NCBI GenBank assembly: GCA_000996035.1
Contig: LBYH01000002.1
Span: 8,979-72,978, forward strand
DNA: 64,000 nt
Origin: Parcubacteria group bacterium GW2011_GWA2_40_143
Lineage (GTDB): Bacteria; Patescibacteriota; Minisyncoccia; UBA9983
Direction: 5' to 3'
Position numbers and translations under genes: made by a program. This document shows positions 134 through 16,686 of the stretch, piece by piece (the first letter of the stretch is position 1; each line of letters begins with the position of its first letter). The notes beneath the pieces were generated by a model, which saw nothing but the letters and a program-made list of their open reading frames with translations, searched no databases and was not told the origin of the DNA.

Positions 134-2851
134 TCAATACTTTTTTCTTATCTCTTCCTCCACTTCTCTTCTGTCTCTGCCGTATTTAAGCGAAGAAATT
201 TCCGCTACGCCAACGCCGTAAGCCAAGTCTCCTTTCTCAAATGGTGTTGTTTTTACGCTAAACGGCTTTGATATCTGGCCATCTATAAGTATTTTGAGGT
301 AAGCGTTGTAATTATCTATATTCATAATATCATGAGCGCTAAAAGTCGGGCTAAACTGCTTCTCCAAAAATTCGGCATCTTCCGCCCCCACCCTGAAAGC
401 GGCCATTGACCCCACATTGCCAAAAACGGATTTAGAAATACTTTCCTTGAGCTGACTTATAAATTGATGGGCGATTATCAAATTAAGTTTGTACTTTCTG
501 GCTTCAGAGAGAATTGAGGAAATGGAATCAGTGGTAATGTTTTGAAATTCGTCTATATAGAGATAAAAGTCTTTGCGATCTTCTTCCGATATATCTGTGC
601 GCGAAAGAGAAGCCATGAGAATCTTGCCTACCAGAATAAGGCCGAGTAGGCTAGCGTTTAATTCGCCCAACCTGCCTTTGGAGAGATTTACCAAAAGAAT
701 CTTGCCTTCATCCATCACATCTCTTATTTTGAAAGCGGATTTTTCCTGTCCGATTATCGGACGCATAATGTCGTTTGAGAGAAAATTATCAAACTTGGAA
801 GTGATGTACGGCACCATATTGGCTAGAGACGCCTCACCGCCGGCCTTATCGGCCACGTCCCGCCAGAAAGATTTTACTATCGGATTGCTTGCTCTGGAAA
901 GCTTAAATTCTCTAAAATCTTTATCGCTAAGCACTCGGCTTACTTCAAAAAGAGTGTTGCCGGAAGCCGGATCGTCCATTACCAGCAATACCGAATTTCT
1001 GAAATATTGTTCAAACATCGGGCCGCCAGATGTTTTCATATCAAAGAGCTTGTCAAAAATCATTAAAAGTTCGTTTACAATAAAGGTTTTCTGTTCCGGA
1101 AAGCGTGTATCGTACTCAAGCATGTTGAGTCCGAGCGGCCTGTTTACGTTGCCCGGGTCAAAATAGATAACATCGTCAATCCTGTGCTGAGGAATGCGGG
1201 AAAATATATCCTGCAAATCTTGTCCATGCGGATCCATAAAGCATACACCTTTACCGGCTTCTATGTCTTGAATTATCATATTTTTGAGCAGTACGGATTT
1301 ACCGGTGCCGGTTTGACCTATTACATAGAAATGCCTTCGTCTATCTTCGTCTTTTATAAAAACCGGTTTTTCTTCGCCGCGATATATATTTTTGCCAAGC
1401 ATTAAGCCGCTATGAGGCAGATTAAGCGGAGCGGAATGCTCTTTAGCCTTGTTTTGCTTGAGCTGATGAGACACCATGCCGTCTTCCTCAAAAGGCAAAT
1501 GCAAAATACCGGCCAGCTCGGACACATTAAGCTCTATCTCTTCGTCTTTGCTTGGTATCCTGTAAGAAAAATTATGGAAAAATTTTCTTAGTTTACCCCC
1601 TTTTGGTCTTGCAAAGGTTAAAGAATTACCCATCGGCTCGGCAAATTGAGCGAAAGATATTTCCAGCTCTTCCAGCATTTTCCTCGCCCTATCCTCACTC
1701 TCTTTGGCAGACACGGCCAGTCTGAAGTTTACTGGTGAAATTTGCTTTGAAGATTTAAATTCAAGGAGTTTAATGGTTTGCTCGTCTGCCGGATTTTTTT
1801 CTTCCGGCGCGTCTTTGCGTTTTTGCTTGCCTGAACCGAGAATAAGGTCGCTTATTACTCCAATAAAACCGCCGCCATTGCCGACAGCGGCGCTGAATGA
1901 TTCTCCCTTGCGCATCTCATGGATAACCGAACTTACTTTATAGCTTAGGCCACTTTTGCTCGGCATTACCACCATCTGTAAAGCCGCTCCCTCCCCGTCT
2001 TTTTGGAATTTGGTAAAAGCGTTTAAAACAACTCTCATGGGGTCTATGCCAAAATCATTATAATTCTTCAGCGGTAAAACTGGATTCTTTTTAAACTTTG
2101 CCACTGAGCCAAGCGAAAAGCCTTCCGGTTTAAAAATATTATAATCGCCGGATTTTCTGGTAATTTTAAGATTAGGGAAAACGCCTTGCGCCTGCTTTTC
2201 AAAAATATGGCCATTTTCTTCCGCCACCGCGCAATAGAAAGACACCTCGTCTCCCATAAATGGCAGTCCTATTTCCAAAACATAATAAATATTCATGGCC
2301 GACATGCCGGCATAAAACTGCTCCATGGCCGATATGGCTTTTTTAAAGTCATCTTCTCCACTCCTCATTTCCTTAGGCGCTCCGCTCGGCATGGAAATCT
2401 CATACAAAACAAACTCAAGAGATCGTTTAACCTTCTTGTTGCCAACTTTGGCGCCGGCCAATACTCCATGCAAGCTCTCCACTAAAGAATCATGGAAATC
2501 ATCCTCCAAATGAGGATCCAATCTGGCGGCAACCGTTATCGCGTTTAGAACGCCTTTTTCTCTGGCAAGAGACACCAGTTGAGCCACATGACCAAGATGC
2601 GTTTCTTCAGAAACGCCACCCGATCCGCCGAATATTCTTTCCGACTCGGCAGCCACTTCATCGGAGTGCATTTTATATTCTTCAGCCAAAAGATAATCCG
2701 GCTCTTCTTCGGCATAACCTTTTACGACTTCTCTTACCGCTTCATGGGAAGATTCATCGCCTCCGGCTTTAGACAGCTCAAGATCTTTTACTCTTTTTCT
2801 CAAGTACTCAAGCTCGTCTTCACGAGACATTATTTTAGGCTCTTGTTCCAT
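134..2851 (-). CDS. Type IV coupling protein-like ATPase (VirD4/TraG/TraD family) with a large N-terminal cytoplasmic domain
   Basis: 905 aa. The C-terminal half carries Walker A 'HFYVIGQTGTGKS', 'FMDPHGQD' (TraD-like DPxG box), Walker B 'YLYIDEFQN', and 'IIAHQFISQLKE...FGNVGSMAAFRVG' resembling the VirD4/TraG QS..QL motif. No N-terminal TM helices are evident. Confidence 0.55.
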   Translation of the reverse strand: MEQEPKIMSREDELEYLRKRVKDLELSKAGGDESSHEAVREVVKGYAEEEPDYLLAEEYKMHSDEVAAESERIFGGSGGVSEETHLGHVAQLVSLAREKGVLNAITVAARLDPHLEDDFHDSLVESLHGVLAGAKVGNKKVKRSLEFVLYEISMPSGAPKEMRSGEDDFKKAISAMEQFYAGMSAMNIYYVLEIGLPFMGDEVSFYCAVAEENGHIFEKQAQGVFPNLKITRKSGDYNIFKPEGFSLGSVAKFKKNPVLPLKNYNDFGIDPMRVVLNAFTKFQKDGEGAALQMVVMPSKSGLSYKVSSVIHEMRKGESFSAAVGNGGGFIGVISDLILGSGKQKRKDAPEEKNPADEQTIKLLEFKSSKQISPVNFRLAVSAKESEDRARKMLEELEISFAQFAEPMGNSLTFARPKGGKLRKFFHNFSYRIPSKDEEIELNVSELAGILHLPFEEDGMVSHQLKQNKAKEHSAPLNLPHSGLMLGKNIYRGEEKPVFIKDEDRRRHFYVIGQTGTGKSVLLKNMIIQDIEAGKGVCFMDPHGQDLQDIFSRIPQHRIDDVIYFDPGNVNRPLGLNMLEYDTRFPEQKTFIVNELLMIFDKLFDMKTSGGPMFEQYFRNSVLLVMDDPASGNTLFEVSRVLSDKDFREFKLSRASNPIVKSFWRDVADKAGGEASLANMVPYITSKFDNFLSNDIMRPIIGQEKSAFKIRDVMDEGKILLVNLSKGRLGELNASLLGLILVGKILMASLSRTDISEEDRKDFYLYIDEFQNITTDSISSILSEARKYKLNLIIAHQFISQLKESISKSVFGNVGSMAAFRVGAEDAEFLEKQFSPTFSAHDIMNIDNYNAYLKILIDGQISKPFSVKTTPFEKGDLAYGVGVAEISSLKYGRDRREVEEEIRKKY

Positions 2852-2924
2852 TGCTTAAATAATAGCAAATACCTTGCCTTTTTAAAAGCAAGGTATTTTG
2901 TCTGCCAATATAACCGCTTACGGA

Positions 2925-3125
2925 TTAAGCGGAGACGAATGGCAAGATTCCGATTACTCTGGCTCTTTTTATCGCCGTGGCAAGCTTTCTCTGATGCATG
3001 GCGCAAACGCCAGTCTCCTTCTTGGGAGAAATGCGCGCGTGATGCGAGAGAAAACGCTTTAAGACTTCCGTCTTTTTGTAATCTATCGTCTTTATATTAT
3101 TTGTACAAAAATAACACTGTTTCAT
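2925..3125 (-). CDS. rpsR: 30S ribosomal protein S18
   Basis: 66 aa; 'CYFC...IDYK..LKRFLS...ISPKKETGVCAMHQRKLATAIKRARVIGILPF' is the S18 signature. Sits directly downstream of ssb. Confidence 0.9.
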   Translation of the reverse strand: MKQCYFCTNNIKTIDYKKTEVLKRFLSHHARISPKKETGVCAMHQRKLATAIKRARVIGILPFVSA

Positions 3126-3127
3126 AA

Positions 3128-3577
3128 TTAAAATGGTATATCGTCAGGATTTATTTCTTCTTCCGGATATTCTATGGTTTCAAGTTCCTCAGCCTTCTGC
3201 GGTGTTCCGCCGGAAGCGGCGCCGCCGCCTTGAACGGAATCGCCACCCTGCTTCCTTGGACCAAACTGCACGCGTTCAGCCACAATCTCGGTACGGCTTT
3301 TCTTGGAGCCGTCTTGAGCGTTCCAGTTTCTGGTTTGTATCCTGCCTTCCACCAATACGGAATTGCCCTTTTTAAGATATTGGACTACTGAGTCGGCCTG
3401 CTTGCCAAACACCACCACGTTATGGAATTGGACTTCCTCTTTTTTCTGGCCTTGCTGGTCCCGCCAAACCCTATTGGTGGCTACGCTAAAAGATGCCACC
3501 GAAGCTCCGGACGGCAGAGATCTTGATTCCGGATCTCTGGTAAGATTGCCTATTATAAATGCTTTGTTTAAGTTCAT
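3128..3577 (-). CDS. ssb: Single-stranded DNA-binding protein
   Basis: 149 aa; OB fold 'FIIGNLTRDPE...VASFSVATN', Gly-rich linker, acidic C-terminal tail ending 'DDIPF'. Confidence 0.9.
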   Translation of the reverse strand: MNLNKAFIIGNLTRDPESRSLPSGASVASFSVATNRVWRDQQGQKKEEVQFHNVVVFGKQADSVVQYLKKGNSVLVEGRIQTRNWNAQDGSKKSRTEIVAERVQFGPRKQGGDSVQGGGAASGGTPQKAEELETIEYPEEEINPDDIPF

Positions 3578-3584
3578 GTTAATT

Positions 3585-4034
3585 TTATTTATTTAACATT
3601 TCTTCTAATTTTTCATCTATTTGCTCAGGTTTGATGTCCTCTTTTTCTTCTTTAACCGTCTGAGTTGAGCGCTTGGAAGATGACTGGGCTGACTGAGGAG
3701 TTTTGTCGTTAGTAACATCAGTAATCATGTGCCTTATGATTTTATCATTCAAATCAATAGCCTTTTTTATGCTTTCCACTGAAGACGGGTTTACGTAAAA
3801 CTTCATCCAACAGAAATAAGCGCTATCAAAATCGCTTGACTTGGAGCCGCTTTTGAGCTTCATGGGATACGAAAGCTTTTGCATTTTTGCCGGCTCTTCG
3901 CCCATGATAAAACCGCCATTTTTCTCAATAATTTCTCTCAAAACAGCAACATCCTCGCCGACTTTGTCTTCGGGAGTGAGAGGGTTGATAAGAAAACTTA
4001 TCTCGTATATTTTCTGATCCGGATTTATTGCCAT
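3585..4034 (-). CDS. rpsF: 30S ribosomal protein S6 (start assumed at internal Met 'MAINPDQKIYEISFLINP')
   Basis: S6-like N-terminus 'YEISFLINP' in the classical rpsF-ssb-rpsR arrangement. The track ORF (3585..4100) extends 22 aa further upstream; the internal start is inferred. Confidence 0.75.
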   Translation of the reverse strand: MAINPDQKIYEISFLINPLTPEDKVGEDVAVLREIIEKNGGFIMGEEPAKMQKLSYPMKLKSGSKSSDFDSAYFCWMKFYVNPSSVESIKKAIDLNDKIIRHMITDVTNDKTPQSAQSSSKRSTQTVKEEKEDIKPEQIDEKLEEMLNK

Positions 4035-4078
4035 TGATGGTATCCTATCATAAAAATCTCTAAATGCAAGCTTTTTGG

Positions 4079-5311
4079 TTATTTTAAAATTAGCGACCAA
4101 AGGATGCCGGTGGCCTTATCCACAAATATCAGATATTCACCGTTTTCGCTCAAAGACAGGTTTATGGCGTCAAACCCCAAATCTTTATACAAAAGCGCGG
4201 TGGATCCATCCGTAAAATCCTTCTTCCAAAGCGAATCATTGAAAGACACTTCTCCGCTGTACCACTCATCCGGATAATCGGCTTTGGGCAGAGATTTTGG
4301 CGCGGCGCAATAAATGGTTTTTGAGCTTGCGCCCCAAACGCATTTCTCCGGCAAGGTGTTAAAATCAAATTCAGGAGAAGAGTTGCTCGCGGTATCAAGT
4401 ATTCTCGTATTAAAATTACCGCTGCGGCTGTCACTCGCGCTGTATATAATCTTTGAAGCGTCGGGAGAAACTCTGGCCGTAAGGCCTTTTATTCCGCCCA
4501 AAATTCTTTCAAATTTTTCCGTTCTCTGGTTTAGAAAATAGAGATACCCGTCAGCCATGGCCGCCGGCTTGGTGATAAGAGTGATAATATCTCTGCTTGG
4601 CCATTCGGCGTTAAATTCGCCAAAGTTTAGACTAAAAATACTATTTTTATTTTCATTTTTAAAATTAGCCACGATTCCCTGATGTTCACCATCGGCAAGG
4701 ATAAGATAAAACACTTTATCCTCCACCGGCGACACGGCAGCCGCCTTGATGCCGGACGGCAAGAAAACTCCGCCAAGCTCTTTCGGCTCCCCAGATAAGC
4801 CGCTCAGATCGGCCAAAAAGTTTTTTACACTCCGTTCCGCCGCGGCGCCGGCTTCCTCAAAATATTTTATAAGAACTTTATTTGCTTTACTTGTCCAAAA
4901 CGTTTCAAAGCTTTTAAGTATAGTAGTATTGGTAAGGCGTTTTCTATTTTTGCCGGAATAGCCTACTTCGTAAACATTACCGGTGCTTCTTTCCATATAT
5001 CTTAAGGTGGTGCTGGAAACAGGCGCCGCCCCGCTTACTAAATCCTCCGTAAGCTGTATGAGCTGGCCTTTTTTAACAGGCGTATCTTGTCCGTCTTGAT
5101 CCACAAATCTGCCGGAACCGGTGCCGCCGCCGGGCTTAACGCTTGTTCTATCTTCTCCGCCGGAAGGAAATGGAGTGATACCGCCTTCGCTGCCACCAAC
5201 ATCAATCGGTGTCTTAAAAGTGTTTTGCCTTAGGAAAACAAAGAAGCCAAACCCCGCGAGAGCGAAGATTATTGCCGTTATTAAGATTATAAAAATTTCT
5301 TTTTTAGACAT
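4079..5311 (-). CDS. Secreted/membrane-anchored hypothetical protein, beta-propeller-like
   Basis: 410 aa; N-terminal TM/signal 'IFIILITAIIFALAGFGFFVFL'; the C-terminal half has a TolB/WD40-like repeat character. Part of the T4SS-like cluster. Confidence 0.4.
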   Translation of the reverse strand: MSKKEIFIILITAIIFALAGFGFFVFLRQNTFKTPIDVGGSEGGITPFPSGGEDRTSVKPGGGTGSGRFVDQDGQDTPVKKGQLIQLTEDLVSGAAPVSSTTLRYMERSTGNVYEVGYSGKNRKRLTNTTILKSFETFWTSKANKVLIKYFEEAGAAAERSVKNFLADLSGLSGEPKELGGVFLPSGIKAAAVSPVEDKVFYLILADGEHQGIVANFKNENKNSIFSLNFGEFNAEWPSRDIITLITKPAAMADGYLYFLNQRTEKFERILGGIKGLTARVSPDASKIIYSASDSRSGNFNTRILDTASNSSPEFDFNTLPEKCVWGASSKTIYCAAPKSLPKADYPDEWYSGEVSFNDSLWKKDFTDGSTALLYKDLGFDAINLSLSENGEYLIFVDKATGILWSLILK

Positions 5312-5339: not shown

Positions 5340-5966
5340 TTAACTTCCATCCCAACCTTCAAGCTCTCCGGCCGGACTTTCATCATATGTATTATAACTT
5401 CCATCCTCATTTAGAATCTTTCCAGCTGAACCTTCATCGCGATCAATAATAACTTCATTTTTACCATCACCGCTATCGCTTCCACTAGTACTGCTACTAT
5501 CACCAGTACCGCTGCTGCTGGTGCTACTACTGTCGCTGCTATCACTACTACTCGTAACTTCATAATTTTCAAGAGTGTCAATGAATTTAAAGCTTACCAA
5601 TTGAGGGTTTATGGTATAAAGAAGAAGAAACGACGCAAAAGCCAAAAGCAACCCCCAAAGCGCGTTATTGATACGTTCTTTTGCTTTGGTCATTTGACTC
5701 TCGTTGCCACCGCTTGCCATATAGATAATACCGCCAACGGTTATCATCAGCACTGCCAAAAAACCTGCCATAGCCAAAGCAAATTTAAAAATCCAGCCCA
5801 AATATTCTGACAATGTTACATCGTCGCCATCACCGGCGGAAGGGAGTGACTCAAGCAGTGTATATTTCGGTTGAGAAGGCCCAACAAAATCATCATCCGC
5901 GGCCATGGCAAAAAACGGCATTAAACATAAACTTATTAAAATTGTGATAAATATTTTTTTAAACAT
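5340..5966 (-). CDS. Candidate VirB2/TrbC-like pilin with a Ser/Asp-rich C-terminal tail
   Basis: 208 aa; signal peptide 'MFKKIFITILISLCLMPFFAMAAD', then two hydrophobic helices separated by a short polar loop ('WIFKFALAMAGFLAVLMITVGGIIY...NNALWGLLLAFASFLLLY'), then a poly-Ser/Asp tail. Topology matches conjugative pilins. Confidence 0.35.
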   Translation of the reverse strand: MFKKIFITILISLCLMPFFAMAADDDFVGPSQPKYTLLESLPSAGDGDDVTLSEYLGWIFKFALAMAGFLAVLMITVGGIIYMASGGNESQMTKAKERINNALWGLLLAFASFLLLYTINPQLVSFKFIDTLENYEVTSSSDSSDSSSTSSSGTGDSSSTSGSDSGDGKNEVIIDRDEGSAGKILNEDGSYNTYDESPAGELEGWDGS

Positions 5967-6965
5967 TTAAAAATTGATTCTCAGAGAGCTGTTAGCGCTT
6001 TGAGAAATACTCCCGATATCGCCAGATATCAACGCTTTAACATCGGCAAGGCCGGAATCGTCAGCCGCCTTAAAATTAATAATATTACTATTTTCATTCT
6101 GTTGATTTATCTTTTTCCCATTTACCATCCATTTGTAAGTTAAGGCGGGCGGGCTTGATTTAATAAAGTTAAACGCCTCCGCGATCATGGACATATCCCT
6201 TGATGACATATTAAACGTTCTACCCAAAGCTTTTCCAAACAAAATGCCTTTCGTCGGACTATTTTCATAAATAACGGCTTTTGGCTTTACGCCTTGAGAG
6301 GATATTTCTATTGTTTTTTTGTATTTAACGCTTCTGTTTTTATTAGAAACTTCCACGCCAATACTGTATTCTCCATCATCATTCAAACGCACAATAATGC
6401 CTCGCTCGTTAAAGCCGGAAGCTTTTGGAATTTTTTTGTTGTTAACATACCAATCGTAAATAAGCGATGATGGCGACAGTTCAACCCCGCCGGAAAAGAC
6501 ATGAGGAATCGCGTAGAATCTGACGTATGATTTCTTTGCCGGCAAAGCTCTACCTTTATACCAATCCGGCGCGTCCGTGCCGGCTTCCCACAAAAGATCA
6601 ATATCGTCGCCGGAAAAATTCACGGTTTTTGAGACCTCCATTCCCTTGTCTGTAACAATACTCACAACCAAAGAATTGTTTGAGCCGAAATTTGGCGTTA
6701 CAAAATTTATTTTTCTTTTTCCAATGCCATCAGCCACTTTCTTGCCTCCCAGCACCCATGTGATAACGCTTCGGTCCACATCAAACTGATAACTCACAAC
6801 CTCGGCCAAAACTTGAGTCCCCGGCGCCGGATTATTCGGCGTAATTTCAATACTAAAGTCAGAATTAAAAGCATCCGTCTCTATGGCGTAAACTTGAGGA
6901 CTGAAAAGTGACACTAAAATCATCATTGCCAAGAAAATAATCTTATATGAAAAATCTTTCATCAT
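5967..6965 (-). CDS. Secreted hypothetical protein (T4SS-cluster component)
   Basis: 332 aa; cleavable signal peptide 'IIFLAMMILVSLFSPQVYA'; tightly packed between the pilin-like gene and the VirB4 operon. Confidence 0.4.
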   Translation of the reverse strand: MMKDFSYKIIFLAMMILVSLFSPQVYAIETDAFNSDFSIEITPNNPAPGTQVLAEVVSYQFDVDRSVITWVLGGKKVADGIGKRKINFVTPNFGSNNSLVVSIVTDKGMEVSKTVNFSGDDIDLLWEAGTDAPDWYKGRALPAKKSYVRFYAIPHVFSGGVELSPSSLIYDWYVNNKKIPKASGFNERGIIVRLNDDGEYSIGVEVSNKNRSVKYKKTIEISSQGVKPKAVIYENSPTKGILFGKALGRTFNMSSRDMSMIAEAFNFIKSSPPALTYKWMVNGKKINQQNENSNIINFKAADDSGLADVKALISGDIGSISQSANSSLRINF

Positions 6966-6980: not shown

Positions 6981-7379
6981 TCATCCAATTTCTTTTATTA
7001 CTATCCTTGCCACGGTGGCGGCAAGATTAATCGGCAAAACCCCCACGAAAAAATCAAAAACGCTGCCAACACCAAGTACCATGAAACTGGCGGTTAATTT
7101 CTTCGGCCCGAAATACAAAAACAACACCAAGCCGAAACACAAGTTAATAACCACGCTTAAATAAGGGATAATGGCAAACAAATCAAAAACAGCCGCCATC
7201 GCGAGCACCGGCCAATACTTGGCAAACCTCGCGCCAAGAGACAATATCGCTTTTGGATTCTTGGCCACAACCGCCGAAGTTACATCTTTAGCCAGCTTGG
7301 CGGCGTTTCTCGCCTGATTGAGCCGACTCGCCTTGCTTTCTTCTTCCGGCGAAATTCCGTTGTTAAAATTATTTTCCAT
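6981..7379 (-). CDS. Small polytopic membrane protein (T4SS-cluster component)
   Basis: 132 aa; at least three hydrophobic segments after a charged N-terminus. Immediately downstream of VirB4. Confidence 0.4.
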   Translation of the reverse strand: MENNFNNGISPEEESKASRLNQARNAAKLAKDVTSAVVAKNPKAILSLGARFAKYWPVLAMAAVFDLFAIIPYLSVVINLCFGLVLFLYFGPKKLTASFMVLGVGSVFDFFVGVLPINLAATVARIVIKEIG

Positions 7380-10315: not shown

Positions 10316-10960
10316 TTAATTTATCGGTTCACGATAAGGGTCTGCGTCGCCGTAACCCTTGCCATTTTCTAAGGGCGAGGAGGTCTTCGGTTCTACTTCT
10401 TCAGGCTTTTTATATTCCGCCACCTCCTTCGGCGCCCTGTATACGTCATCTTTGAGCTTGGCCTCAAACGGATTGGTAACGCCTTTAAAAATGTCCGGCA
10501 TTTTTTCTTCCTCATTTTTTACAGGCAAAGACGGCGCGGGAACATCTTCTTTTTCTATTTCTTTAAGTATATCACTTTTTGCGTCAGAAACAGCGGCAAC
10601 GATCCCCTCGCCATCGTCAAACGCGTCTTTATCGTCTCTTAAATTATGCACTCGTCGCAAAGAGTCTCTCACCTTCTTAAATATCCGCTCATTCACATCC
10701 GAGGCTATTTCTCCGGCTTTGGTTTTGTCAATTTCCAGCAGCTTGACTAGATTGGAGACAAACTCGCTTGACATGGTAACACCAAGCATTACCATGCCAG
10801 TTTCATTTCCAAGATTGCCGATTTTATCTATATTTAAATTATATTTTTTCCCAATCTTAACAATTTCTTCATCGGTTTCTATACTAAAAATAGCCGATCT
10901 TAAATCCTCCGGCAGATTGGAGTAAATATTTTCTATTTCTTGATCCGAATATTCTTTCAT
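10316..10960 (-). CDS. Acidic cytoplasmic hypothetical protein
   Basis: 214 aa, no TM segments, D/E-rich; adjacent genes are only 5 nt apart (10311/10316). Confidence 0.4.
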   Translation of the reverse strand: MKEYSDQEIENIYSNLPEDLRSAIFSIETDEEIVKIGKKYNLNIDKIGNLGNETGMVMLGVTMSSEFVSNLVKLLEIDKTKAGEIASDVNERIFKKVRDSLRRVHNLRDDKDAFDDGEGIVAAVSDAKSDILKEIEKEDVPAPSLPVKNEEEKMPDIFKGVTNPFEAKLKDDVYRAPKEVAEYKKPEEVEPKTSSPLENGKGYGDADPYREPIN

Positions 10961-10986: not shown

Positions 10987-13077
10987 TTATAGCTTCTTGG
11001 AACCTCCGCCGCCACCACTTGAACCTATAGCGCCCTGAAGACCTTCTGTTTCTTTTCTTCTTTCTTCTTTATCTTCCAACTCCTTTTTCCTTGTTTCTTC
11101 TTTTTCAATTTGTTTTATATATCCTTCTCTTATCTTCTTTTCCGCATTTTTCTTTAATCTTGCTTGCTTAGTATCGTCAATGGCCTTTATGGCCGACGCT
11201 TCTCCGTCTGTGTCTCCATCATTTATTGCCTTAGACAGTTTGTAATTTTGAGTAACAAGTTTTGTTTCAAGCCCTTCCAAAACTTCTTCATTTTTTTCTA
11301 TTTCTTCTTTTAATTTATCTTTGGCAATACTTGCGTTAGACTGCACGGCTTTTAGATTCTTCAGCTCTTCTTTTTCTGATTCTATCCTTTTCTTCTTTTC
11401 TGTTTCAGCTGATCTTTTCGTTTCAATTCCTTCAATCGTTTTAGAAGCCGATTTTGTGAACACTTGCCCCTTCATCGCCGTTAAACCGGCATCACTGTAT
11501 GAACCAAATTTTTCCTTTCTTGATTTTTCTTCAGCCTTAAGTTGCTTCTCCCTCCATGTTGAAGCGCGAGCAAAGCCGCTGTTTACAAGAGGGATGGCTC
11601 CTATTATTTTGCCGAATTTGTTTTGTTTGCCGTCTTTATCCAATTGAGATCTGAGTAGACCCTCTCCGGCTAATCCAGCGGTTCTTTTTGCACCATATGT
11701 ACCCCATCTCATCGCCGCTCTGTCGCCAAATTTATTTCTCGCGAAATCGCCGGCTTGCTTGCCATACTTCATCGCCATGTCCGATCCGATCGCTCCCATC
11801 TGCTTGGCGACATATAAAGCCATTATCATAAGAAACGCAACCACCATAAAATGGAAAATCACTATGAGAGTTTCATCCACGTTAAATGGAAGAAATGAGC
11901 TGGCCGCGCTTTTTTCTGCGGCTATGATGGTTCCTTTCAAAAAATTGCTGTTTATAATCTCTGTTACTATTAAAAGCATAAAGAGATACGCGGGAGCGAA
12001 AAAAGATTGCCTTATTAAGGTATCCCACCATTTGCCGGCATGAGCCGCCAGCGCTTTTGGCATAATTGGCAAGATAAAACCAAGCGGCGCGAAAATCATA
12101 AGTATCCAAAGCACAACTACTCTTATAATAAAGAGGGCCGCGCTGGCAAAAAAGATAAAACCGGCAATAAAGTTAAGAGTGGCTGAGAGGATATACAAAA
12201 CTGACATCTGCATAAAAGTAACCGGCAATATTTCTTTTCCTTCCTCTACAGCTTCCATCAATTTCTCTTGATTGCTTTTTTTGGTTTCATCTTCCTCCGG
12301 CGCGCCAAACCACGCATTTTTAAATTCGCCAGCAAACAAAGACTTGCCTGTGTATTTCACAGATTCCAATAAATTTGTCCAACTTGACCATGTCCGATAG
12401 CTACCGGCTGTAACATCTGCCACACCCGTTCCAACAATTACAGCTGAGGAAATAACCTTAGCAACCCCGTCTTTTTTTATATCAACAATCTGAACAGCGC
12501 CGGGAATTTGCGGAAATTTAGCTTGCCCTTGCGTGTCTATTTTGTTGTAAAAACTCCATGCCAATACATGCGAAGCGTCAATAATCATTCTGGCAAACAA
12601 AAGGCTAAAATTTATAAGCACTGCCACCACTATAACTTTTACAAGCAATTCCTTGCCTCCGTAGGTGCCTATCTGCAAAATAGTGGCAATGGCGATATAT
12701 AAAATAATGAAGATAAAAAACAGATTGGCAAAATCTCTCATAAGCTTCCAGCCTTCCTCTATAATTCCTGCTTCAAATATGCTTCCTGAAATGCTAAAAA
12801 GCATCGCTCCGTCAAAAATCTCTCCGCCGGCCCACGTTACGAAAGTTGAAAGATAATGTATAAACTGAGTTATATAGTATATACCTGCTGTTATGCATCC
12901 CCAGACGGCAGTTACTCCACAGACACCTTCAATGTGCATAACAGTTTCATCGCTTGCCGTCTCCTCCGCGTAAGCAACGCCAATAACGCCAATTTGCGAT
13001 ATAGCCGGCGCGGAAGTCTGAAAAATGGTTACCGCCAGTATCAGACACAATATTATTTTTTTTATTTTACTTATCAT
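10987..13077 (-). CDS. VirB6/TrbL-like polytopic membrane protein with a C-terminal charged coiled-coil tail
   Basis: 696 aa; at least seven hydrophobic helices followed by a K/E-rich coiled-coil C-terminus and a poly-Gly end. Position and topology are consistent with VirB6-family channel proteins. Confidence 0.4.
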   Translation of the reverse strand: MISKIKKIILCLILAVTIFQTSAPAISQIGVIGVAYAEETASDETVMHIEGVCGVTAVWGCITAGIYYITQFIHYLSTFVTWAGGEIFDGAMLFSISGSIFEAGIIEEGWKLMRDFANLFFIFIILYIAIATILQIGTYGGKELLVKVIVVAVLINFSLLFARMIIDASHVLAWSFYNKIDTQGQAKFPQIPGAVQIVDIKKDGVAKVISSAVIVGTGVADVTAGSYRTWSSWTNLLESVKYTGKSLFAGEFKNAWFGAPEEDETKKSNQEKLMEAVEEGKEILPVTFMQMSVLYILSATLNFIAGFIFFASAALFIIRVVVLWILMIFAPLGFILPIMPKALAAHAGKWWDTLIRQSFFAPAYLFMLLIVTEIINSNFLKGTIIAAEKSAASSFLPFNVDETLIVIFHFMVVAFLMIMALYVAKQMGAIGSDMAMKYGKQAGDFARNKFGDRAAMRWGTYGAKRTAGLAGEGLLRSQLDKDGKQNKFGKIIGAIPLVNSGFARASTWREKQLKAEEKSRKEKFGSYSDAGLTAMKGQVFTKSASKTIEGIETKRSAETEKKKRIESEKEELKNLKAVQSNASIAKDKLKEEIEKNEEVLEGLETKLVTQNYKLSKAINDGDTDGEASAIKAIDDTKQARLKKNAEKKIREGYIKQIEKEETRKKELEDKEERRKETEGLQGAIGSSGGGGGSKKL

Positions 13078-13097: not shown

Positions 13098-15704
13098 TTA
13101 AGCATCCGCTAAAATATCTTCGCAATCTTTCGCGTCAACATCTTCGTTGTCTGTATATTTATTCAACACGCAAGTGTATTGCTCAACTTGGTCTTTTGTC
13201 TTATTCTCTTGATTACTCGTGTCTTCGTTTACTTCTTTCGCCTTTTTCTCCCCCTTGGTGGTGTATTCTTTTTTACCAAGAGCGCCTGCTGATATTGTAA
13301 CACTGTCGGAGAATTTTTCCCCATCGGCGTCCTGACAAATAAACTTATAAGACACTTCGTATGAGCTATCGCCTTCTTCTCCTTCAAACTCTATTGTTTC
13401 TTTACCTTTGTAATTGCTCGCGTCAACTTCCAAATAATACCCCTCGCCGACATATTGCCAATTATCTGCGATACCATCTCCATCCGCATCCACTACCTCA
13501 TCATCTTCATCAAGCCTTGTCAGACTGCCGCTTAAGCCTTCCATATAATCTTTTTCTTCCGCGTACAAATAACAGCTTCCCGAAACATTTGAAGCGCTCC
13601 ATCTTAGTTTGGAACTTTTACCGAAAGCCACCTCCGAAGGCGAAGTCGTTATATCCACGGCGGTAACGACTTCAGCGTCATCGTAAGAAGAAATCGCCAC
13701 AGACACGGTATCATAATCTCCGTCTTCGCTATAGCAGGTAATGGAATATTCTCTTTCTTCGCTTTCATATTCTCCGTCTTCATCTTTAATGCCAAAATCT
13801 TTTGTTCGGTAAGAACCGGATGTGCTCTCGCTAAAATCCATATCCCAATCGTTATCACCGGAACCTTCTTCTTTTTCGCAATAATCGGCGCCGGTAGCGT
13901 ACCAATACACGTAAGTGTCTTCTCCATTCTCCACCGCCGTTTCTTTTGCCCAGATATTTACGGCAAATTCTTCCGATCCGCTAATTTCTCCGCAAATATC
14001 GCCTTTTTCTTGATTGGCATTGTAATTCTCATTACTGAAGCAATAATTCTTTTTAATCTCGTTTATTTTCTTTTTTGATTTGGCTTTAAGCACATCATTG
14101 TCAAAATTTTCAAGCACTTCCAGCGCCCACTCGGATATGCCTATGTAATCTTGGCCCCAGTCAGAATCAAAATACTCCCCACCAGACTCAAAATCGCCAA
14201 GCTTGCTTTCCGCTTTGCTAATTTTTTCGTCAATATCTTTTATTTCGCAGGTTATTGTATCATCATCACTATTGTCGTCATCATCACACGATGTCACAGT
14301 TTCAACCTCACCCAAATCAATATACTTAAAAACTTCTATATCATTCAAATCGGTTATATCGCCACTGTCTTCGTCAAGCAAGTCGGCGCAATATTCATTA
14401 TCATTCAAAATATCCCCTCTATTATCTTTGCCATATTGGATGCATTTAAGCTTGTTGGCGATTTCTCCAAGTTTTTCCATTCTTTCCTTCAAGGTACTCT
14501 TCATCTCCTCAAGCGAGTTCTTAAACTTCTTTTCCCACTTGCTCATATTGCCTATCTTTTCAGATAAGTTAAGTTTCGTTGCGTTTGCGTCTTGACTGTC
14601 CTCAAGCGCGCCATATTGATCCCTGTTGCCGGCTCTGTCCGGACTGCTCGTGTAGGCACTCAAGCCTTCTCCGCCAGATCCGCCGGTAACAATCCAGCTT
14701 ACTAATTGGGTGGCCAGCGCGCCGATTATTTCGTCTATTTCATCGGCTACTTGTAATCTACCTTCATCACCGCCGAGGGTTTTATCCAATTTCCCTTGCA
14801 CTATGGCGCCGGGAGTGGTGGTTTTGTACTCAGCACATGTGCTGATGGGAGCAGTGGAGGGAGAAGAAACTGGATCAAAAGCATTATAATTGTTGCCAAG
14901 ACTTGTTGGCTCGCTATACTTCACGCACTGCCTTATACCCAAGAAACCTCTGCCGAGCTGCGCGCCAAATTTTTCTTGCTCTCGGCCTTTTTGCGCTTCT
15001 TTAATGGCGTCGTTGTAGGCCATACCAAATGCTCCGGCTTTATTATTTTTCGGGTTTGATGTAAAAAGCCACATCCCCCAGCCGCCATTTCTAAAATCAC
15101 TACCATATTCTCTTACTATGTTTTCCTGATTTATATTTATATCTATGTCAATCCAATCACTAAAACTCCTACCAAGTCCTTCTTCAAATTTATCTACAAC
15201 ATCTTCAAAAGTACATCTATATTTAGTTTTGCTTGTGCCAGGTAAAAATAGATCTAAACTAAAACTAAACTTTCCAAATGGATCGCATAACCACTCAAGA
15301 TTCAGGTCACTTATAACCGCCCCGCTCAATTGATTGCCAAATTCTCCAAAGAACTGCTCCGGGTTCTCAAGAAACATCGGGCTCCCTTCAAAGCCGCTGT
15401 TTATCCAATCCACTATCTGATCGGTAAATGTGTCTATGAGTACGTTGATAGCCGTCCACGCAAAACCATCAAGGACGTACTCTTTGATTTCAAGTGCCCC
15501 TGCGGAAATAGCTGTAGCAGCACCAGTAACAGCGCTCTCAACAGACGCCCATGCCCCTTGGCTCACGTCAGAATTAACATTTACGGAGTAGGCCTCCGCT
15601 TTTGTCGCATTAAAAGAAAAAGTTGCCGCCAAAAAAACAGCAAACACACTCATTATCCATCTTGTTATTTTTTTATTTTTTTTCCAAAAAAACATTTTAT
15701 TCAA
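13098..15704 (-). CDS. Large secreted acidic surface protein (candidate adhesin/tip protein of the T4SS-like cluster)
   Basis: 868 aa; signal anchor 'WIMSVFAVFLAATFSFNA', highly D/E-rich, scattered Cys. Overlaps the upstream gene by 8 nt. Confidence 0.45.
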   Translation of the reverse strand: MNKMFFWKKNKKITRWIMSVFAVFLAATFSFNATKAEAYSVNVNSDVSQGAWASVESAVTGAATAISAGALEIKEYVLDGFAWTAINVLIDTFTDQIVDWINSGFEGSPMFLENPEQFFGEFGNQLSGAVISDLNLEWLCDPFGKFSFSLDLFLPGTSKTKYRCTFEDVVDKFEEGLGRSFSDWIDIDININQENIVREYGSDFRNGGWGMWLFTSNPKNNKAGAFGMAYNDAIKEAQKGREQEKFGAQLGRGFLGIRQCVKYSEPTSLGNNYNAFDPVSSPSTAPISTCAEYKTTTPGAIVQGKLDKTLGGDEGRLQVADEIDEIIGALATQLVSWIVTGGSGGEGLSAYTSSPDRAGNRDQYGALEDSQDANATKLNLSEKIGNMSKWEKKFKNSLEEMKSTLKERMEKLGEIANKLKCIQYGKDNRGDILNDNEYCADLLDEDSGDITDLNDIEVFKYIDLGEVETVTSCDDDDNSDDDTITCEIKDIDEKISKAESKLGDFESGGEYFDSDWGQDYIGISEWALEVLENFDNDVLKAKSKKKINEIKKNYCFSNENYNANQEKGDICGEISGSEEFAVNIWAKETAVENGEDTYVYWYATGADYCEKEEGSGDNDWDMDFSESTSGSYRTKDFGIKDEDGEYESEEREYSITCYSEDGDYDTVSVAISSYDDAEVVTAVDITTSPSEVAFGKSSKLRWSASNVSGSCYLYAEEKDYMEGLSGSLTRLDEDDEVVDADGDGIADNWQYVGEGYYLEVDASNYKGKETIEFEGEEGDSSYEVSYKFICQDADGEKFSDSVTISAGALGKKEYTTKGEKKAKEVNEDTSNQENKTKDQVEQYTCVLNKYTDNEDVDAKDCEDILADA

Positions 15705-16686
15705 AAACTTCTATGTCATAATCGTCAAAAAATTCCTGCATACTTAGACCGGCGTAATAAACTCTCTTTGCCTGATTTTTGTAAATATTGAAACCCGCCA
15801 AAGCCGATATGGGGTCGCTTGCAATCTTAGTCATATCATTTACTGCCGAACCGACATTGTTAATTCCATTCAAAATATCTAAATGTTGAGCCGACAAGCT
15901 TTTTGGAATATTTTTAATTTCCGAAATCTGCGTCGCGATTGTTTCATAAAAATTCGCCGAATCTTTCAAAAGGGAAATTTCTTCATCAATGTTTTCATCA
16001 TTTTTCTTTTTCCCAAGCATGCGTTCAAATATTTGACCTTCGTTTTCTTGAGTATTTTTTTTCTCGTCAAACATTGTTTTTTTTATTTCATCGGCGTAGG
16101 CTTTTATAGCCGCGCTCGTTTCGCTTTTGGTGAAATTTATATCAGAAGAATCGTAAGCATCTTTAATATTTTCTCCGGCCGATTCAATGTCGCCCATAAA
16201 CATATTTACCAACTCATTTTTGTCGTCTTCCGTAAGCGTTCCCTTTGCCGTTTTGAGCGCCAAATAATTAAGCATCATTTTTCTGGCTGATATTTGGGTT
16301 TTAGAATCGCTTATCCATTCATTCACGTCCGCGCCATTTGTTTTGTTTACAGGTAAATTACCGGAAAGCTCATCATCGGGGCCGGCTACGGTGGGATTGC
16401 GGCCGGCGGCAATTTCTTCTCCATCGCTCATGCCATCGCCATCGGTATCAGGATTTTTAGGATCTGTTTTCCAAAGCGCTTCTTCCCAATCAGCCAAACC
16501 GTCTCCGTCCGCGTCTTTGACCAATATTTCTTTGGCGGTCATGTTCACCGCCAAAAGAGAGTCGTCTTTCTCTGCCTCGTATGAAAGACTGGTGTTTTTG
16601 ATTGATTTATAGTAAAACCACCCTCCAAAAAGAAGGATAATAATTATCAAGAAAAGAACTATTTTTTTATTTGGTAAGATAGCCAA
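15697..16686 (-). CDS. Membrane-anchored protein with DxDxDG (thrombospondin type-3-like) calcium-binding repeats
   Basis: 329 aa; N-terminal TM 'IVLFLIIIILLFGGWFYY'; 'DADGDGLADWEE...DPKNPDTDGDGMSDGEE' repeats. First gene of the minus-strand cluster. Confidence 0.45.
   Translation of the reverse strand: MAILPNKKIVLFLIIIILLFGGWFYYKSIKNTSLSYEAEKDDSLLAVNMTAKEILVKDADGDGLADWEEALWKTDPKNPDTDGDGMSDGEEIAAGRNPTVAGPDDELSGNLPVNKTNGADVNEWISDSKTQISARKMMLNYLALKTAKGTLTEDDKNELVNMFMGDIESAGENIKDAYDSSDINFTKSETSAAIKAYADEIKKTMFDEKKNTQENEGQIFERMLGKKKNDENIDEEISLLKDSANFYETIATQISEIKNIPKSLSAQHLDILNGINNVGSAVNDMTKIASDPISALAGFNIYKNQAKRVYYAGLSMQEFFDDYDIEVFE

What the first reader, a model, noticed from the sequence alone, without database searches (positions are those of the whole stretch)
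134..16686. Chromosomally embedded, Gram-positive-type type IV secretion-like cluster with rpsF-ssb-rpsR inside it
Thirteen co-directional, tightly spaced minus-strand genes make up the cluster. They encode a DxDxDG calcium-binding anchor protein, an 868-aa acidic surface protein, a VirB6-like polytopic protein, a PrgI/VirB3-like protein, a VirB4 ATPase, small membrane and secreted proteins, a VirB2-like pilin candidate, and a VirD4/TraG-family coupling ATPase with an unusual ~500-aa N-terminal cytoplasmic domain. No relaxase, integrase or oriT-like repeats are visible. The housekeeping rpsF-ssb-rpsR operon sits between the pilin-side genes and the coupling protein, so this looks like a domesticated core-genome T4SS rather than an ICE. 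Systems like this are proposed to mediate DNA uptake or host-cell interaction in episymbiotic small-genome bacteria, and most of the component ORFs have no recognisable family.
Basis: partly seen in the sequence, partly recalled or inferred. Interest (0 to 1): 0.7.

Follow-up and report, generated by a model that had tools for sequence, protein, structure and literature searches.

The report
Known patescibacterial type IV secretion cluster
This is the chromosomal, relaxase-free type IV secretion gene cluster already described as a near-universal feature of ultra-small Patescibacteria (CPR) bacteria. The ribosomal-protein operon and coupling-type ATPase next to it got there through a local genome rearrangement and are not a built-in part of the machine.

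Summary
The gene row is real: 15 co-directional minus-strand ORFs (not 13) from 16686 to 134. HMMs confirm a VirB4 ATPase (NCBIfam CD1110 family, above cut-off), PrgI/VirB3, a VirB2-like pilin, TSP3 calcium-binding repeats, rpsF-ssb-rpsR and a T4CP-type ATPase. The 696-aa polytopic protein is VirB6/TrbL through its orthologues. No relaxase lies in the window or within 10 kb beyond it. The genome is a Parcubacteria/Paceibacteria (Terrybacteria-like) chromosome.

This system is already published (Quiñonero-Coronel 2025, PMC12102498; Wang 2023, PMC10633639).

Comparative loci show the conserved module is 11 genes (16686 to 4079). In 26 of 27 relatives it abuts jag-yidC/dnaA, which in this window lie about 38 kb away. 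rpsF-ssb-rpsR follows it in 1 of 27 relatives. The T4CP lies within 10 kb of virB4 in none of 26 VirB4-anchored and none of 80 T4CP-anchored loci, where it usually follows secY-adk-map.

The parts
15697..16686 (-). First gene of the conserved module. 329-aa membrane-anchored protein with bacterial TSP3 (DxDxDG calcium-binding) repeats at about residues 58-100. The C-terminal ~230 aa has no recognised family.
   Evidence: Pfam TSP3_bac E 5e-12, 45.9 bits against cut-off 25. N-terminal hydrophobic helix at 2-20. Orthologue found in 18/27 loci with enough flank. The orthologue profile hits a biofilm-associated surface protein only in the repeat region.
13098..15704 (-). 868-aa acidic secreted or surface protein of unknown family. 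The start codon is uncertain: gene callers give 849-865 aa.
   Evidence: D+E 174 against K+R 83 and one N-terminal hydrophobic segment. No Pfam family. Positional orthologues in 24/28 loci, 22-36% identical and 312-1318 aa long.
10987..13077 (-). Extended VirB6/TrbL-like polytopic membrane protein (696 aa) with a long charged C-terminal tail.
   Evidence: About 6-7 hydrophobic helices. The window protein itself has no Pfam hit, but 5 of 25 aligned positional orthologues hit Pfam TrbL/VirB6 (best E 1.9e-7). Present in 32/32 loci. The tail gives only low-complexity TolA-like matches.
10316..10960 (-). 214-aa soluble acidic protein of unknown family. It has a conserved ~110-aa helical N-domain and a nearly invariant C-terminal DPYRE motif.
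   Evidence: No TM helices. No Pfam, NCBIfam or PDB match. Orthologues in 34/45 loci. Conserved columns are listed in alignment A5.
9892..10311 (-). PrgI/VirB3-like small membrane protein (139 aa).
   Evidence: Pfam PrgI E 7.9e-11, 42.8 bits against cut-off 27. Hydrophobic hairpin region at about 33-60. Present in 61/61 loci.
9226..9867 (-). TrsD-like protein: the N-terminal part of VirB4 encoded as a separate 213-aa polypeptide.
   Evidence: NCBIfam conju_CD1110 profile positions 2-127 (E 2.6e-8), VirB4_plasma positions 101-237 (E 2.1e-9), TrsD NF041427 (E 2e-4). Precomputed Pfam PF26593 TraC-like. TAA stop, then 15 nt before the VirB4 ATG. Present as a separate gene in 71/71 loci.
7390..9210 (-). 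VirB4-type ATPase (606 aa), lacking the N-terminal ~185 profile positions that the preceding gene supplies.
   Evidence: NCBIfam conju_CD1110 E 4.5e-113, 379 bits against cut-off 325, profile positions 185-733. Pfam P-loop_TraG E 4e-24 and AAA_10. 71-85% identical across Parcubacteria lineages, while UvrD and KsgA in the same loci are about 50% identical.
6981..7379 (-). 132-aa small membrane protein of unknown family, with 2-3 C-terminal TM helices.
   Evidence: Hydropathy. No family. A 100-170 aa membrane ORF sits in this position in about half of the loci, but sequence similarity is detectable in only 4/73. Not related to the pilin or PrgI by hhalign.
5967..6965 (-). 332-aa secreted protein made of three tandem Ig-like beta-sandwich domains.
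   Evidence: N-terminal signal-like helix. AlphaFold2 model with mean pLDDT 68 is all-beta in three blocks. Foldseek hits are Ig/BIg/FnIII arrays such as SiiE, Hoc and NCAM, at E 3e-9 and weaker. Present in 54/55 loci.
5340..5966 (-). VirB2-like T4SS pilin candidate (208 aa): a signal-like segment, two hydrophobic helices, then an acidic Ser/Asp/Gly-rich C-terminal tail.
   Evidence: Pfam T4SS_pilin PF18895, 31.5 bits against cut-off 26.6. NCBIfam Mbov_0395 pilin-like, 22 bits, below its cut-off of 40. Hydropathy. Present in 33/42 loci.
4079..5311 (-). Last gene of the conserved module: a 410-aa membrane-anchored protein with a TolB-like beta-propeller.
   Evidence: N-terminal TM helix at 6-24. 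The orthologue profile hits TolB beta-propeller chains at E 2e-4. Present in 29/29 loci.
2925..4100 (-). Housekeeping rpsF-ssb-rpsR operon. It is adjacent to the T4SS module but not part of it. rpsF most likely starts at the ATG at 4034.
   Evidence: Pfam Ribosomal_S6, SSB (E 5e-40) and Ribosomal_S18. It follows the T4SS module in only 1 of 27 relatives. It is absent within 10 kb of the T4CP in 80 species.
2867..2898 (-). Terminator-like hairpin between rpsR and the T4CP gene, overlapped by a promoter-like site.
   Evidence: 14-bp stem in the terminator scan and a promoter-like TTTAAA-16-TATTAT with TG. The RNA fold gives -23.8 kcal/mol, z = -4.0.
134..2851 (-). 905-aa soluble T4CP-type ATPase. 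Its parts are a helical segment (residues 1-140), a DUF8128 domain predicted to have the VirB4 N-terminal-domain fold (about 145-450), and a TrwB/VirD4-like nucleotide-binding domain (about 485-830). It is a conserved core gene that is normally unlinked to the T4SS.

Best explanation
Window 16686 to 4079 (minus strand) is the Paceibacteria/Parcubacteria version of the Patescibacteria-clade type IV secretion system. This is a chromosomal, vertically inherited, relaxase-free derivative of the monoderm (MPF-FATA) conjugation machinery.

Shown here: the gene content.
- A VirB4 motor split into a TrsD-like N-terminal protein and a 606-aa ATPase.
- A PrgI/VirB3 protein and an extended VirB6/TrbL protein, which would form the membrane platform.
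- One VirB2-like pilin.
- A set of anchored or secreted surface proteins: a TSP3 calcium-binding protein, an 868-aa acidic protein, a protein of three Ig-like domains and a TolB-like beta-propeller protein.

Inferred from homologous systems: VirB4 docks on VirB3/VirB6 and powers the extraction and polymerisation of the pilin into a pilus or conduit through the cell wall. The surface proteins would span the envelope or contact a host cell. By analogy with the essential T4SS of the saccharibacterium Southlakia epibionticum, the machine serves the epibiotic lifestyle by exchanging macromolecules or signals with a host cell, rather than conjugating.

rpsF-ssb-rpsR and the T4CP-type ATPase are not part of the conserved module. 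An inversion or rearrangement next to the replication origin, which lies in this window at about 44 kb, replaced the ancestral jag-yidC/dnaA neighbour with the rps operon. In this genome that operon happens to be followed by the T4CP gene. The T4CP is a separate core gene, soluble and with a VirB4-N-domain-like fold. It may still feed or dock onto the T4SS in trans.
For: HMM identities: (VirB4 above the NCBIfam CD1110 cut-off; PrgI, T4SS_pilin and TSP3 above Pfam cut-offs).
VirB6 through orthologues.
Split VirB4; conserved in 71/71 loci.
Taxonomy and conservation: 71-100% identical VirB4 in Terry-, Giovannoni-, Niyogi-, Yonath- and Tagabacteria; median VirB4 identity 74%, against about 50% for UvrD and KsgA in the same loci.
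Synteny.
Module ends at the 410-aa gene and abuts jag-yidC/dnaA in 26/27 loci.
The origin genes are in this window at 42.6-47.2 kb, with the cumulative GC-skew minimum there.
No relaxase or ICE integrase.
T4CP unlinked elsewhere.
Hairpin before the T4CP gene.
Published description and essentiality of the homologous system: PMC12102498, PMC10633639, PMC12857230.
Against: The function is inferred, not shown. No Paceibacteria T4SS has been tested, and the Southlakia data come from a different class whose cluster composition differs (a pilin array and VirB1-like hydrolases).

No VirB8-like and no VirB1-like component was identified inside the module. The only candidate hydrolase is the LysM-M23 peptidase about 5 kb upstream.

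The 696-aa protein has no direct VirB6 hit.

The inversion model is inferred from gene order in relatives, not reconstructed from breakpoints.

The T4SS genes and rpsF are only 44 nt apart with no predicted terminator, so co-transcription of the rps operon with the cluster cannot be excluded.
Confidence: 0.85

Rival explanations
1. The whole row 16686 to 134 is one functional unit. In this reading it is a DNA-translocating T4SS (uptake or export of single-stranded DNA) in which SSB and the T4CP are dedicated parts.
For: The genes are physically contiguous and co-directional with small gaps. SSB binds ssDNA, and T4CPs couple DNA to T4SSs (established knowledge). There are weak NCBIfam similarities to the archaeal DNA-import proteins CedB (47 bits) and CedD (22 bits).
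Against: The linkage is not conserved. rpsF-ssb-rpsR follows the module in 1 of 27 relatives, and a T4CP lies within 10 kb of virB4 in none of 26. No T4SS or rps gene lies near the T4CP in any of 80 species.

The ssb gene is the ordinary rpsF-ssb-rpsR housekeeping copy. A hairpin separates rpsR from the T4CP gene. The Ced scores are far below their cut-offs of 600-700 bits.

In Southlakia, competence depends on ComEC and type IV pili, and the T4SS is essential independently of ComEC. The t4cp was not essential (PMC12857230; PMC12102498).
Confidence: 0.08
2. The cluster is an integrated conjugative element or its recent remnant, with the relaxase and integrase lost or lying elsewhere.
For: VirB4 is closest to VirB4s of Firmicutes conjugative elements (CD1110 family). 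A T4CP-type gene is nearby. An HUH-type Y1 transposase (17565-18230) and a tyrosine recombinase (35773-36864) are in the window.
Against: The same gene order sits at the same chromosomal site (UvrD-KsgA on one side, jag-yidC/dnaA on the other) across many genera.

VirB4 is more conserved than the flanking housekeeping genes.

The GC content of the cluster (0.40-0.43) falls within the range seen across the window.

No relaxase was found in the window or 10 kb beyond it. No flanking direct repeats were found.

The Y1 transposase is a REP-flanked, sporadically distributed insertion. The recombinase has the XerC/D domain pair and lies among housekeeping genes.
Confidence: 0.03
3. The 905-aa protein is not a coupling protein for this T4SS at all. 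It would be a housekeeping HerA/FtsK-superfamily translocase with another role, for example in chromosome or nucleic-acid handling, that merely shares ancestry with T4CPs.
For: It lies in housekeeping surroundings in 80 species, typically after secY-adk-map and before ndk. It has no membrane anchor. It falls far below all curated NCBIfam T4CP cut-offs. The t4cp homologue was not essential in Southlakia while the T4SS genes were (PMC12102498).
Against: Three T4CP-specific Pfam families pass their gathering cut-offs. The best solved relatives by sequence are TrwB and DotL. Its N-terminal domain is predicted to have the VirB4 N-domain fold, which in R388 contacts VirB3 and the inner-membrane complex. 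That argues for docking onto a T4SS platform.
Confidence: 0.3

Closest known systems
Patescibacteria-clade T4SS, as catalogued by Quiñonero-Coronel et al. 2025 (Microb Genom, PMC12102498), class Paceibacteria arrangement
   Same: Shared features: a VirB4 of MPF-FATA ancestry; a separate TrsD-like gene beside virB4; PrgI/VirB3; VirB6; a VirB2-like pilin; no relaxase; a chromosomal location next to ksgA and near dnaA/dnaN/rnpA; and a T4CP that is usually encoded far from virB4 (compared).
   Different: In this genome the module has been separated from jag-yidC/dnaA by about 38 kb. It is now followed by rpsF-ssb-rpsR and then the T4CP, which places it among the minority of cases (148 of 5,713 in that paper) where a T4CP is near virB4. 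The paper does not discuss the DUF8128 domain or its fold.
Southlakia epibionticum ML1 T4SS (SEML1_0006-0019; Wang et al. 2023 Cell, PMC10633639)
   Same: Both are monoderm-type T4SSs with VirB4, a TrsD-like protein, PrgI, VirB6 and VirB2-like pilins, and without a relaxase or a linked coupling protein. The T4CP-like proteins encoded elsewhere in that genome also carry about 360-400 residues ahead of the ATPase domain.
   Different: Southlakia belongs to Saccharimonadia, has an array of six divergent pilins and has peptidase/lysozyme genes beside virB4. This window has one recognisable pilin and a different set of surface proteins (TSP3, acidic 868 aa, three Ig-like domains, TolB-like propeller). 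Essentiality has been shown only for Southlakia.
Conjugative MPF-FATA T4SSs of Firmicutes (pCF10 Prg/Pcf, pGO1 Trs, Clostridioides CTn CD1110 family)
   Same: VirB4 passes the CD1110 equivalog cut-off. There is a PrgI family protein, a TrsD-like protein as in pGO1, and no outer-membrane core components.
   Different: This locus has no relaxase, no oriT and no element boundaries. It has a VirB2-like pilin, which Gram-positive conjugative systems lack. No PrgB-type adhesin or VirB8-like PrgL was recognised. Inheritance is vertical, as core-genome genes.
TrwK/VirB4 of plasmid R388 (PDB 7o42, 8rtd) and TrwB (PDB 1e9r)
   Different: There is no detectable sequence similarity between DUF8128 and the VirB4/TrsD of this same genome (hhalign probability below 1%). 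TrwB has an N-terminal transmembrane domain, which this protein lacks. The combination of a VirB4-like N-domain with a T4CP-like ATPase domain is found in neither TrwK nor TrwB.

Membership tests
Patescibacteria-clade T4SS (MPF-FATA-derived) | VirB4-type ATPase of the monoderm (FATA) lineage whose nearest relatives are patescibacterial | tested here: met
   NCBIfam conju_CD1110, 379 bits against cut-off 325. All named proteins among the best 120 homologues are Patescibacteria/Parcubacteria. No phylogenetic tree was built.
Patescibacteria-clade T4SS (MPF-FATA-derived) | Separate TrsD-like (VirB4 N-terminal) gene adjacent to virB4 | tested here: met
   ORF 9226-9867 matches CD1110 profile positions 2-127 and TrsD NF041427. 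TAA plus 15 nt precede virB4. Present in 71/71 relatives.
Patescibacteria-clade T4SS (MPF-FATA-derived) | VirB3/PrgI homologue near virB4 | tested here: met
   Pfam PrgI, 42.8 bits against cut-off 27. Present in 61/61 relatives.
Patescibacteria-clade T4SS (MPF-FATA-derived) | VirB6/TrbL polytopic membrane protein | tested here: met
   The evidence is indirect. The window protein has no Pfam hit, but 5 of 25 aligned positional orthologues hit TrbL/VirB6 with a best E of 1.9e-7. It has about 6-7 hydrophobic helices.
Patescibacteria-clade T4SS (MPF-FATA-derived) | VirB2-like pilin gene near virB4 | tested here: met
   PF18895, 31.5 bits against cut-off 26.6, with a signal segment plus two hydrophobic helices.
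Patescibacteria-clade T4SS (MPF-FATA-derived) | No associated relaxase; chromosomal site near ksgA and the dnaA region | tested here: met
   No relaxase in the window or 10 kb beyond it. KsgA lies 81 nt upstream. dnaA lies at 44470-45852 in the window.
Patescibacteria-clade T4SS (MPF-FATA-derived) | Required for epibiotic growth | not testable with these tools
   Shown only for Southlakia epibionticum by Tn-seq (PMC10633639).
Integrative conjugative element / conjugative T4SS | Relaxase (MOB) and oriT | tested here: not met
   No relaxase family appears in any Pfam or NCBIfam scan of the cluster, the rest of the window or the downstream 10 kb. The only repeat structure found is the REP-like palindromes around the Y1 transposase.
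Integrative conjugative element / conjugative T4SS | Integrase at a boundary, flanking att repeats, variable presence among relatives | tested here: not met
   The nearest tyrosine recombinase is XerC/D-like and lies 19 kb away among housekeeping genes. No flanking direct repeats were found. The locus and its flanks are conserved across genera.
VirD4/TrwB-type coupling protein (T4CP) | T4CP-type nucleotide-binding domain with Walker A and B motifs | tested here: met
   T4SS-DNA_transf at 32.9 bits (cut-off 20.1), TrwB_AAD_bind at 32.4 (20.5) and TraG-D_C at 25.7 (22). GQTGTGKS and YIDEFQ are invariant in the family. TrwB and DotL are the best PDB sequence hits.
VirD4/TrwB-type coupling protein (T4CP) | N-terminal transmembrane anchor | tested here: not met
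   There is no hydrophobic segment in residues 1-700. The N-terminal 480 residues are predicted to be a soluble alpha/beta domain.
VirD4/TrwB-type coupling protein (T4CP) | Membership of a curated T4CP equivalog, and genetic linkage to a T4SS or relaxase | tested here: not met
   The best NCBIfam hit is SXT_TraD at 52.5 bits against cut-off 366. The gene is unlinked to T4SS genes in 80 of 80 T4CP-anchored loci, and no T4CP lies within 10 kb of virB4 in 26 of 26 VirB4-anchored loci.
DNA-import T4SS-like systems (archaeal Ced; Helicobacter ComB) | CedB/CedD-type or ComB-type components above family thresholds | tested here: not met
   CedB scores 47 bits against cut-off 700, and CedD scores 16-22 bits against cut-off 600. 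CedA-like and ComB-specific components were not searched for separately.

The most novel reading that the evidence does not exclude
The DUF8128 'T4CP' would be a distinct third kind of T4SS motor. It would be a soluble hybrid that joins a VirB4-type N-terminal docking domain to a VirD4/TrwB-type ATPase domain, and it is conserved as a core gene throughout Paceibacteria (and, with similar architecture, in Saccharimonadia). It would dock on the PrgI/VirB6 platform in place of, or beside, the split VirB4 and recruit substrates without a relaxase. If so, it could be an evolutionary intermediate between VirB4 and VirD4, and the missing substrate-selection step of the patescibacterial T4SS.
Probability: 0.2. 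Interest if true: 0.55.

Novelty: already known. Interest (0 to 1): 0.22.

Why it matters
This T4SS is one of the few envelope machines conserved across the CPR radiation. In the one tractable species it is essential for growth on a host, yet its substrate is unknown. This window adds no new kind of system.

It does give a clean Paceibacteria example with every gene delimited. It shows that the apparent inclusion of rpsF-ssb-rpsR and a coupling ATPase is a rearrangement artefact and should not be read as a functional link to DNA handling.

It also yields one testable lead. The widespread soluble T4CP-type ATPase carries a predicted VirB4-like N-terminal domain, which suggests how a coupling-type motor without a membrane anchor could dock on the machine.

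Tried and rejected
1. In-frame stop or recoding in VirB4. The 213-aa and 606-aa ORFs are in the same frame, but the stop is TAA and the split is conserved in 71/71 relatives. It is therefore a genuine two-gene arrangement, not a pseudogene or an alternative genetic code.

2. Conserved ssb-T4CP or rpsR-T4CP linkage. None was found in 80 T4CP-anchored species loci.

3. The 903-aa gene downstream of the T4CP, off the window, as a hidden relaxase or partner. It has no family and is found beside the T4CP in only 1 of 80 loci, at 25% identity.

4. Direct VirB6 assignment by profile against PDB sequences. This gave only low-complexity tail matches.

5. The 132-aa membrane protein as a second pilin or a VirB3. 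hhalign probabilities were 2% or lower.

6. Sequence-level homology between DUF8128 and the genome's own TrsD/VirB4. hhalign probability was below 1%, so the link rests on predicted structure only.

7. The 214-aa protein and the TSP3 protein's C-terminal domain as VirB8-like. There was no sequence signal.

8. Literature search for DUF8128 (no papers) and for cryo-ET of a patescibacterial T4SS (none).

Full report
**1. What is in the sequence**

The ORF scan shows an uninterrupted row of minus-strand ORFs from 16686 down to 134. Intergenic gaps are 0-44 nt, except 73 nt before the last gene. There are 15 ORFs, not 13.

Pfam and NCBIfam scans give the following:
- 15697-16686: TSP3 calcium-binding repeats (E 5e-12), on a protein with an N-terminal TM helix.
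- 9892-10311: PrgI (42.8 bits, cut-off 27).
- 7390-9210: a VirB4 ATPase that passes the NCBIfam CD1110 equivalog cut-off (379 against 325 bits).
- 5340-5966: T4SS_pilin PF18895 (31.5 against 26.6 bits), with a signal segment plus two hydrophobic helices.
- 3585-4100, 3128-3577, 2925-3125: ribosomal S6, SSB and S18.
- 134-2851: three T4CP families above their cut-offs, confined to residues ~485-830.

The 868-aa protein is indeed acidic (D+E 174, K+R 83) with one N-terminal hydrophobic segment.

ORF 9226-9867 (213 aa) matches positions 2-127 of the CD1110 VirB4 profile and weakly matches TrsD, while the 606-aa ORF matches positions 185-733. The two are separated by a TAA stop and 15 nt.

**2. 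Whose genome, and is it an element?**

The VirB4 protein is identical to proteins annotated from Parcubacteria/Terrybacteria assemblies. It is 71-85% identical to ~600-aa proteins from Giovannoni-, Niyogi-, Yonath- and Tagabacteria.

The same-genome contig DPHK01000012.1 extends beyond window position 1. After the T4CP come a 903-aa protein without a family, then RelA/SpoT, EF-P, a sigma factor, dCTP deaminase, MazG and IleRS.

The rest of the window is housekeeping. It includes PNPase, a Mur ligase, the CCA enzyme, RNase Y, ClpP, trigger factor, PBP1, RuvB, Pol I and a XerC/D-type recombinase.

No relaxase was found anywhere. The ICE reading is therefore rejected.

**3. Comparative anatomy**

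Eighty metagenome loci anchored on VirB4, plus Giovannonibacteria loci, share this order:

UvrD - KsgA - TSP3 protein - large surface protein - VirB6-like - 214-aa protein - PrgI - TrsD - VirB4 - (small membrane protein) - three-Ig-domain protein - pilin - TolB-like protein.

Counts among loci with enough flank:

| Gene | Present |
|---|---|
| TrsD | 71/71 |
| PrgI | 61/61 |
| VirB6-like | 32/32 |
| 332-aa protein | 54/55 |
| 410-aa protein | 29/29 |
| pilin | 33/42 |

Within the same loci, VirB4 has a median identity of 74% to the window protein, while UvrD and KsgA are about 50%. This points to strong constraint on the motor.

Identities of the previously unassigned components:
- Five of 25 orthologues of the 696-aa protein hit Pfam TrbL/VirB6 (best E 1.9e-7). 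It is therefore an extended VirB6.
- The 410-aa protein's family profile hits TolB beta-propellers (E 2e-4).
- The 332-aa protein is predicted, at moderate confidence (pLDDT 68), to consist of three Ig-like sandwiches.
- The 214-aa and 132-aa proteins remain without any family.

**4. The rps operon and the T4CP are neighbours by accident**

In 26 of 27 relatives with 10 kb of downstream flank, the gene after the TolB-like protein is jag, followed by yidC, (rnpA) and the divergent dnaA-dnaN. The only exception is the closest relative, L088. There rpsF-ssb-rpsR follows, but the next genes are unrelated and no T4CP is present.

No T4CP lies within 10 kb of virB4 in any of 26 loci. Conversely, 80 species loci anchored on the T4CP contain no T4SS gene and no rpsF, ssb or rpsR within 10 kb. 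In those loci the T4CP typically follows the spc ribosomal operon-secY-adk-map and precedes ndk.

The window itself holds these origin-region genes:
- jag: 42631-43110
- yidC: 43151-43900
- rnpA: 43915-44256
- dnaA: 44470-45852
- dnaN: 46081-47187

The cumulative GC skew has its minimum there, and G+C drops to 0.30. The simplest reading is an inversion or rearrangement beside the origin. It would have detached the T4SS block (together with UvrD, KsgA and the LysM-M23 gene) from jag and joined it to the rps operon. This is an inference from gene order.

A 13-14 bp hairpin (-23.8 kcal/mol, z = -4.0), overlapped by a promoter-like site, lies between rpsR and the T4CP start. This suggests a separate transcription unit for the T4CP.

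**5. The T4CP-type protein**

It belongs to a large family. More than 1500 hits are 43-62% identical over the full ~900 aa. Scored against 50%-identity cluster representatives, the N-domain alone finds 664 clusters, always at the N-terminus of the protein.

It has no transmembrane helix. By sequence profile, its ATPase domain is closest to TrwB (E 1.5e-6) and DotL among solved structures. It falls far below all curated T4CP equivalog cut-offs.

The query contains no P-loop, and no other P-loop ATPase appears in either list. The match is therefore to the VirB4 N-terminal domain; this is inferred, because aligned ranges were not reported. Profile-profile comparison finds no sequence similarity to this genome's own TrsD or VirB4.

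T4CP-like proteins of Southlakia likewise carry ~360-400 residues ahead of the ATPase domain and are encoded away from the T4SS cluster.

**6. Comparison with the literature**

Quiñonero-Coronel et al. 2025 (PMC12102498) surveyed 3,035 Patescibacteria genomes. Their findings:
- VirB4 is present in 2,417 genomes, and most form a monophyletic clade nested in MPF-FATA.
- TrsD, PrgI/VirB3, VirB6 and VirB2-like pilins lie near virB4.
- Relaxases are almost absent.
- Only 148 of 5,713 T4CP homologues lie near virB4.
- In Paceibacteria, dnaA, dnaN, rnpA, ksgA and rpmH are the common neighbours.

Wang et al. 2023 (PMC10633639) showed by Tn-seq that the homologous cluster is essential for the epibiotic growth of Southlakia epibionticum. 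They noted the pilins and the lack of a recognisable relaxase and coupling protein. A 2025 review (PMC12857230) lists these systems as a recognised T4SS group and speculates that the machine and its pilus serve as a conduit to the host.

The finding is therefore an instance of a described system. The public annotation of these very proteins already reads 'Type IV secretory pathway VirB4 component-like'.

**7. Mechanism**

Shown here: the parts list, its conservation and its chromosomal setting.

Inferred from homologous T4SSs:
- TrsD plus VirB4 assemble on PrgI/VirB3 and the VirB6-like protein in the membrane.
- VirB4 drives extraction and polymerisation of the VirB2-like pilin.
- The anchored TSP3, acidic, Ig-like and propeller proteins build or decorate the wall-spanning or host-contacting part.

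The substrate is unknown. Conjugation is unlikely because there is no relaxase. A dedicated DNA-uptake role finds no support in conserved linkage.

**8. Verdict**

It is wrong that the rps operon and the T4CP belong to it.

Novelty: already known. The only lead worth following is the predicted VirB4-like N-domain on the soluble, unlinked T4CP-type ATPase.

Noticed in passing
window 17553-17581, 18234-18262, 19323-19351 (repeats); 17565-18230 and 18266-19294 (genes): Three copies of a 27-29 nt perfect palindrome (TTTGCACCAAGGTTAAACCTTGGTGCAA) flank an IS200-like Y1 (HUH) transposase gene and a 342-aa membrane protein without a family. The pair is inserted between UvrD and KsgA, which are directly adjacent in Giovannonibacteria. 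This looks like a REP/RAYT-type or IS200-type element. Homologues of the transposase turn up sporadically in other loci.
   Followed up: partly
window 42631-47187: The replication-origin region is in the window: jag, yidC and rnpA on the minus strand, dnaA and dnaN on the plus strand. The cumulative GC-skew minimum is there and G+C falls to 0.30-0.31 at 44-48 kb. In nearly all relatives the T4SS module abuts this block. Here it lies about 38 kb away in the opposite relative orientation, which suggests an origin-proximal inversion.
   Followed up: partly
L007-L086 (T4CP-anchored loci from 80 species): The DUF8128 T4CP-type gene usually sits directly after the spc ribosomal-protein operon-secY-adk-map and before ndk and an RNase J-like metallo-beta-lactamase gene. 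That is a housekeeping, presumably highly expressed, context.
   Followed up: partly
window 21543-22544 (+): A LysM-LysM-Peptidase_M23 protein is conserved next to UvrD, on the upstream side of the T4SS block, in Giovannonibacteria as well. PMC12102498 counts LysM/M23-containing proteins among the VirB1-like candidates associated with virB4 in Paceibacteria.
   Followed up: no
window 10316-10960 (-), alignment A5: The 214-aa soluble protein between the VirB6-like gene and PrgI has a nearly invariant C-terminal motif, DPYRE, after a poorly conserved acidic linker. This could be a short docking peptide.
   Followed up: no
window 5341-5438 (-), within the pilin gene: The pilin's C-terminal tail is Ser/Asp/Gly-rich and contains a 44-nt direct repeat spaced 54 nt apart at 73% identity. 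Pilin orthologues vary widely in length, from 132 to 882 aa.
   Followed up: no
L004 12773-15484 (same genome, just beyond window position 1): A 903-aa lysine/glutamate-rich protein follows the T4CP. It has one central hydrophobic segment and no family. It is not conserved beside the T4CP in other species, being found in 1 of 80 loci at 25% identity.
   Followed up: partly
window 54109-55782 (-) and 55808-56914 (-): A PilB/GspE-type T2SSE ATPase (E 3e-122) lies next to a 368-aa protein without a family. This is presumably part of the type IV pilus apparatus, which Patescibacteria also conserve.
   Followed up: no
window 35773-36864 (-): A tyrosine recombinase with the Phage_integrase plus SAM_1 domain pair typical of XerC/XerD lies among housekeeping genes about 19 kb from the cluster. 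It was not treated as an element integrase.
   Followed up: no
window 134-2851 (-), family alignment: The DUF8128 family has two length classes. Proteins of about 900-930 aa carry an extra N-terminal helical segment of ~135 residues. Proteins of about 790-820 aa start directly at the VirB4-like domain.
   Followed up: no
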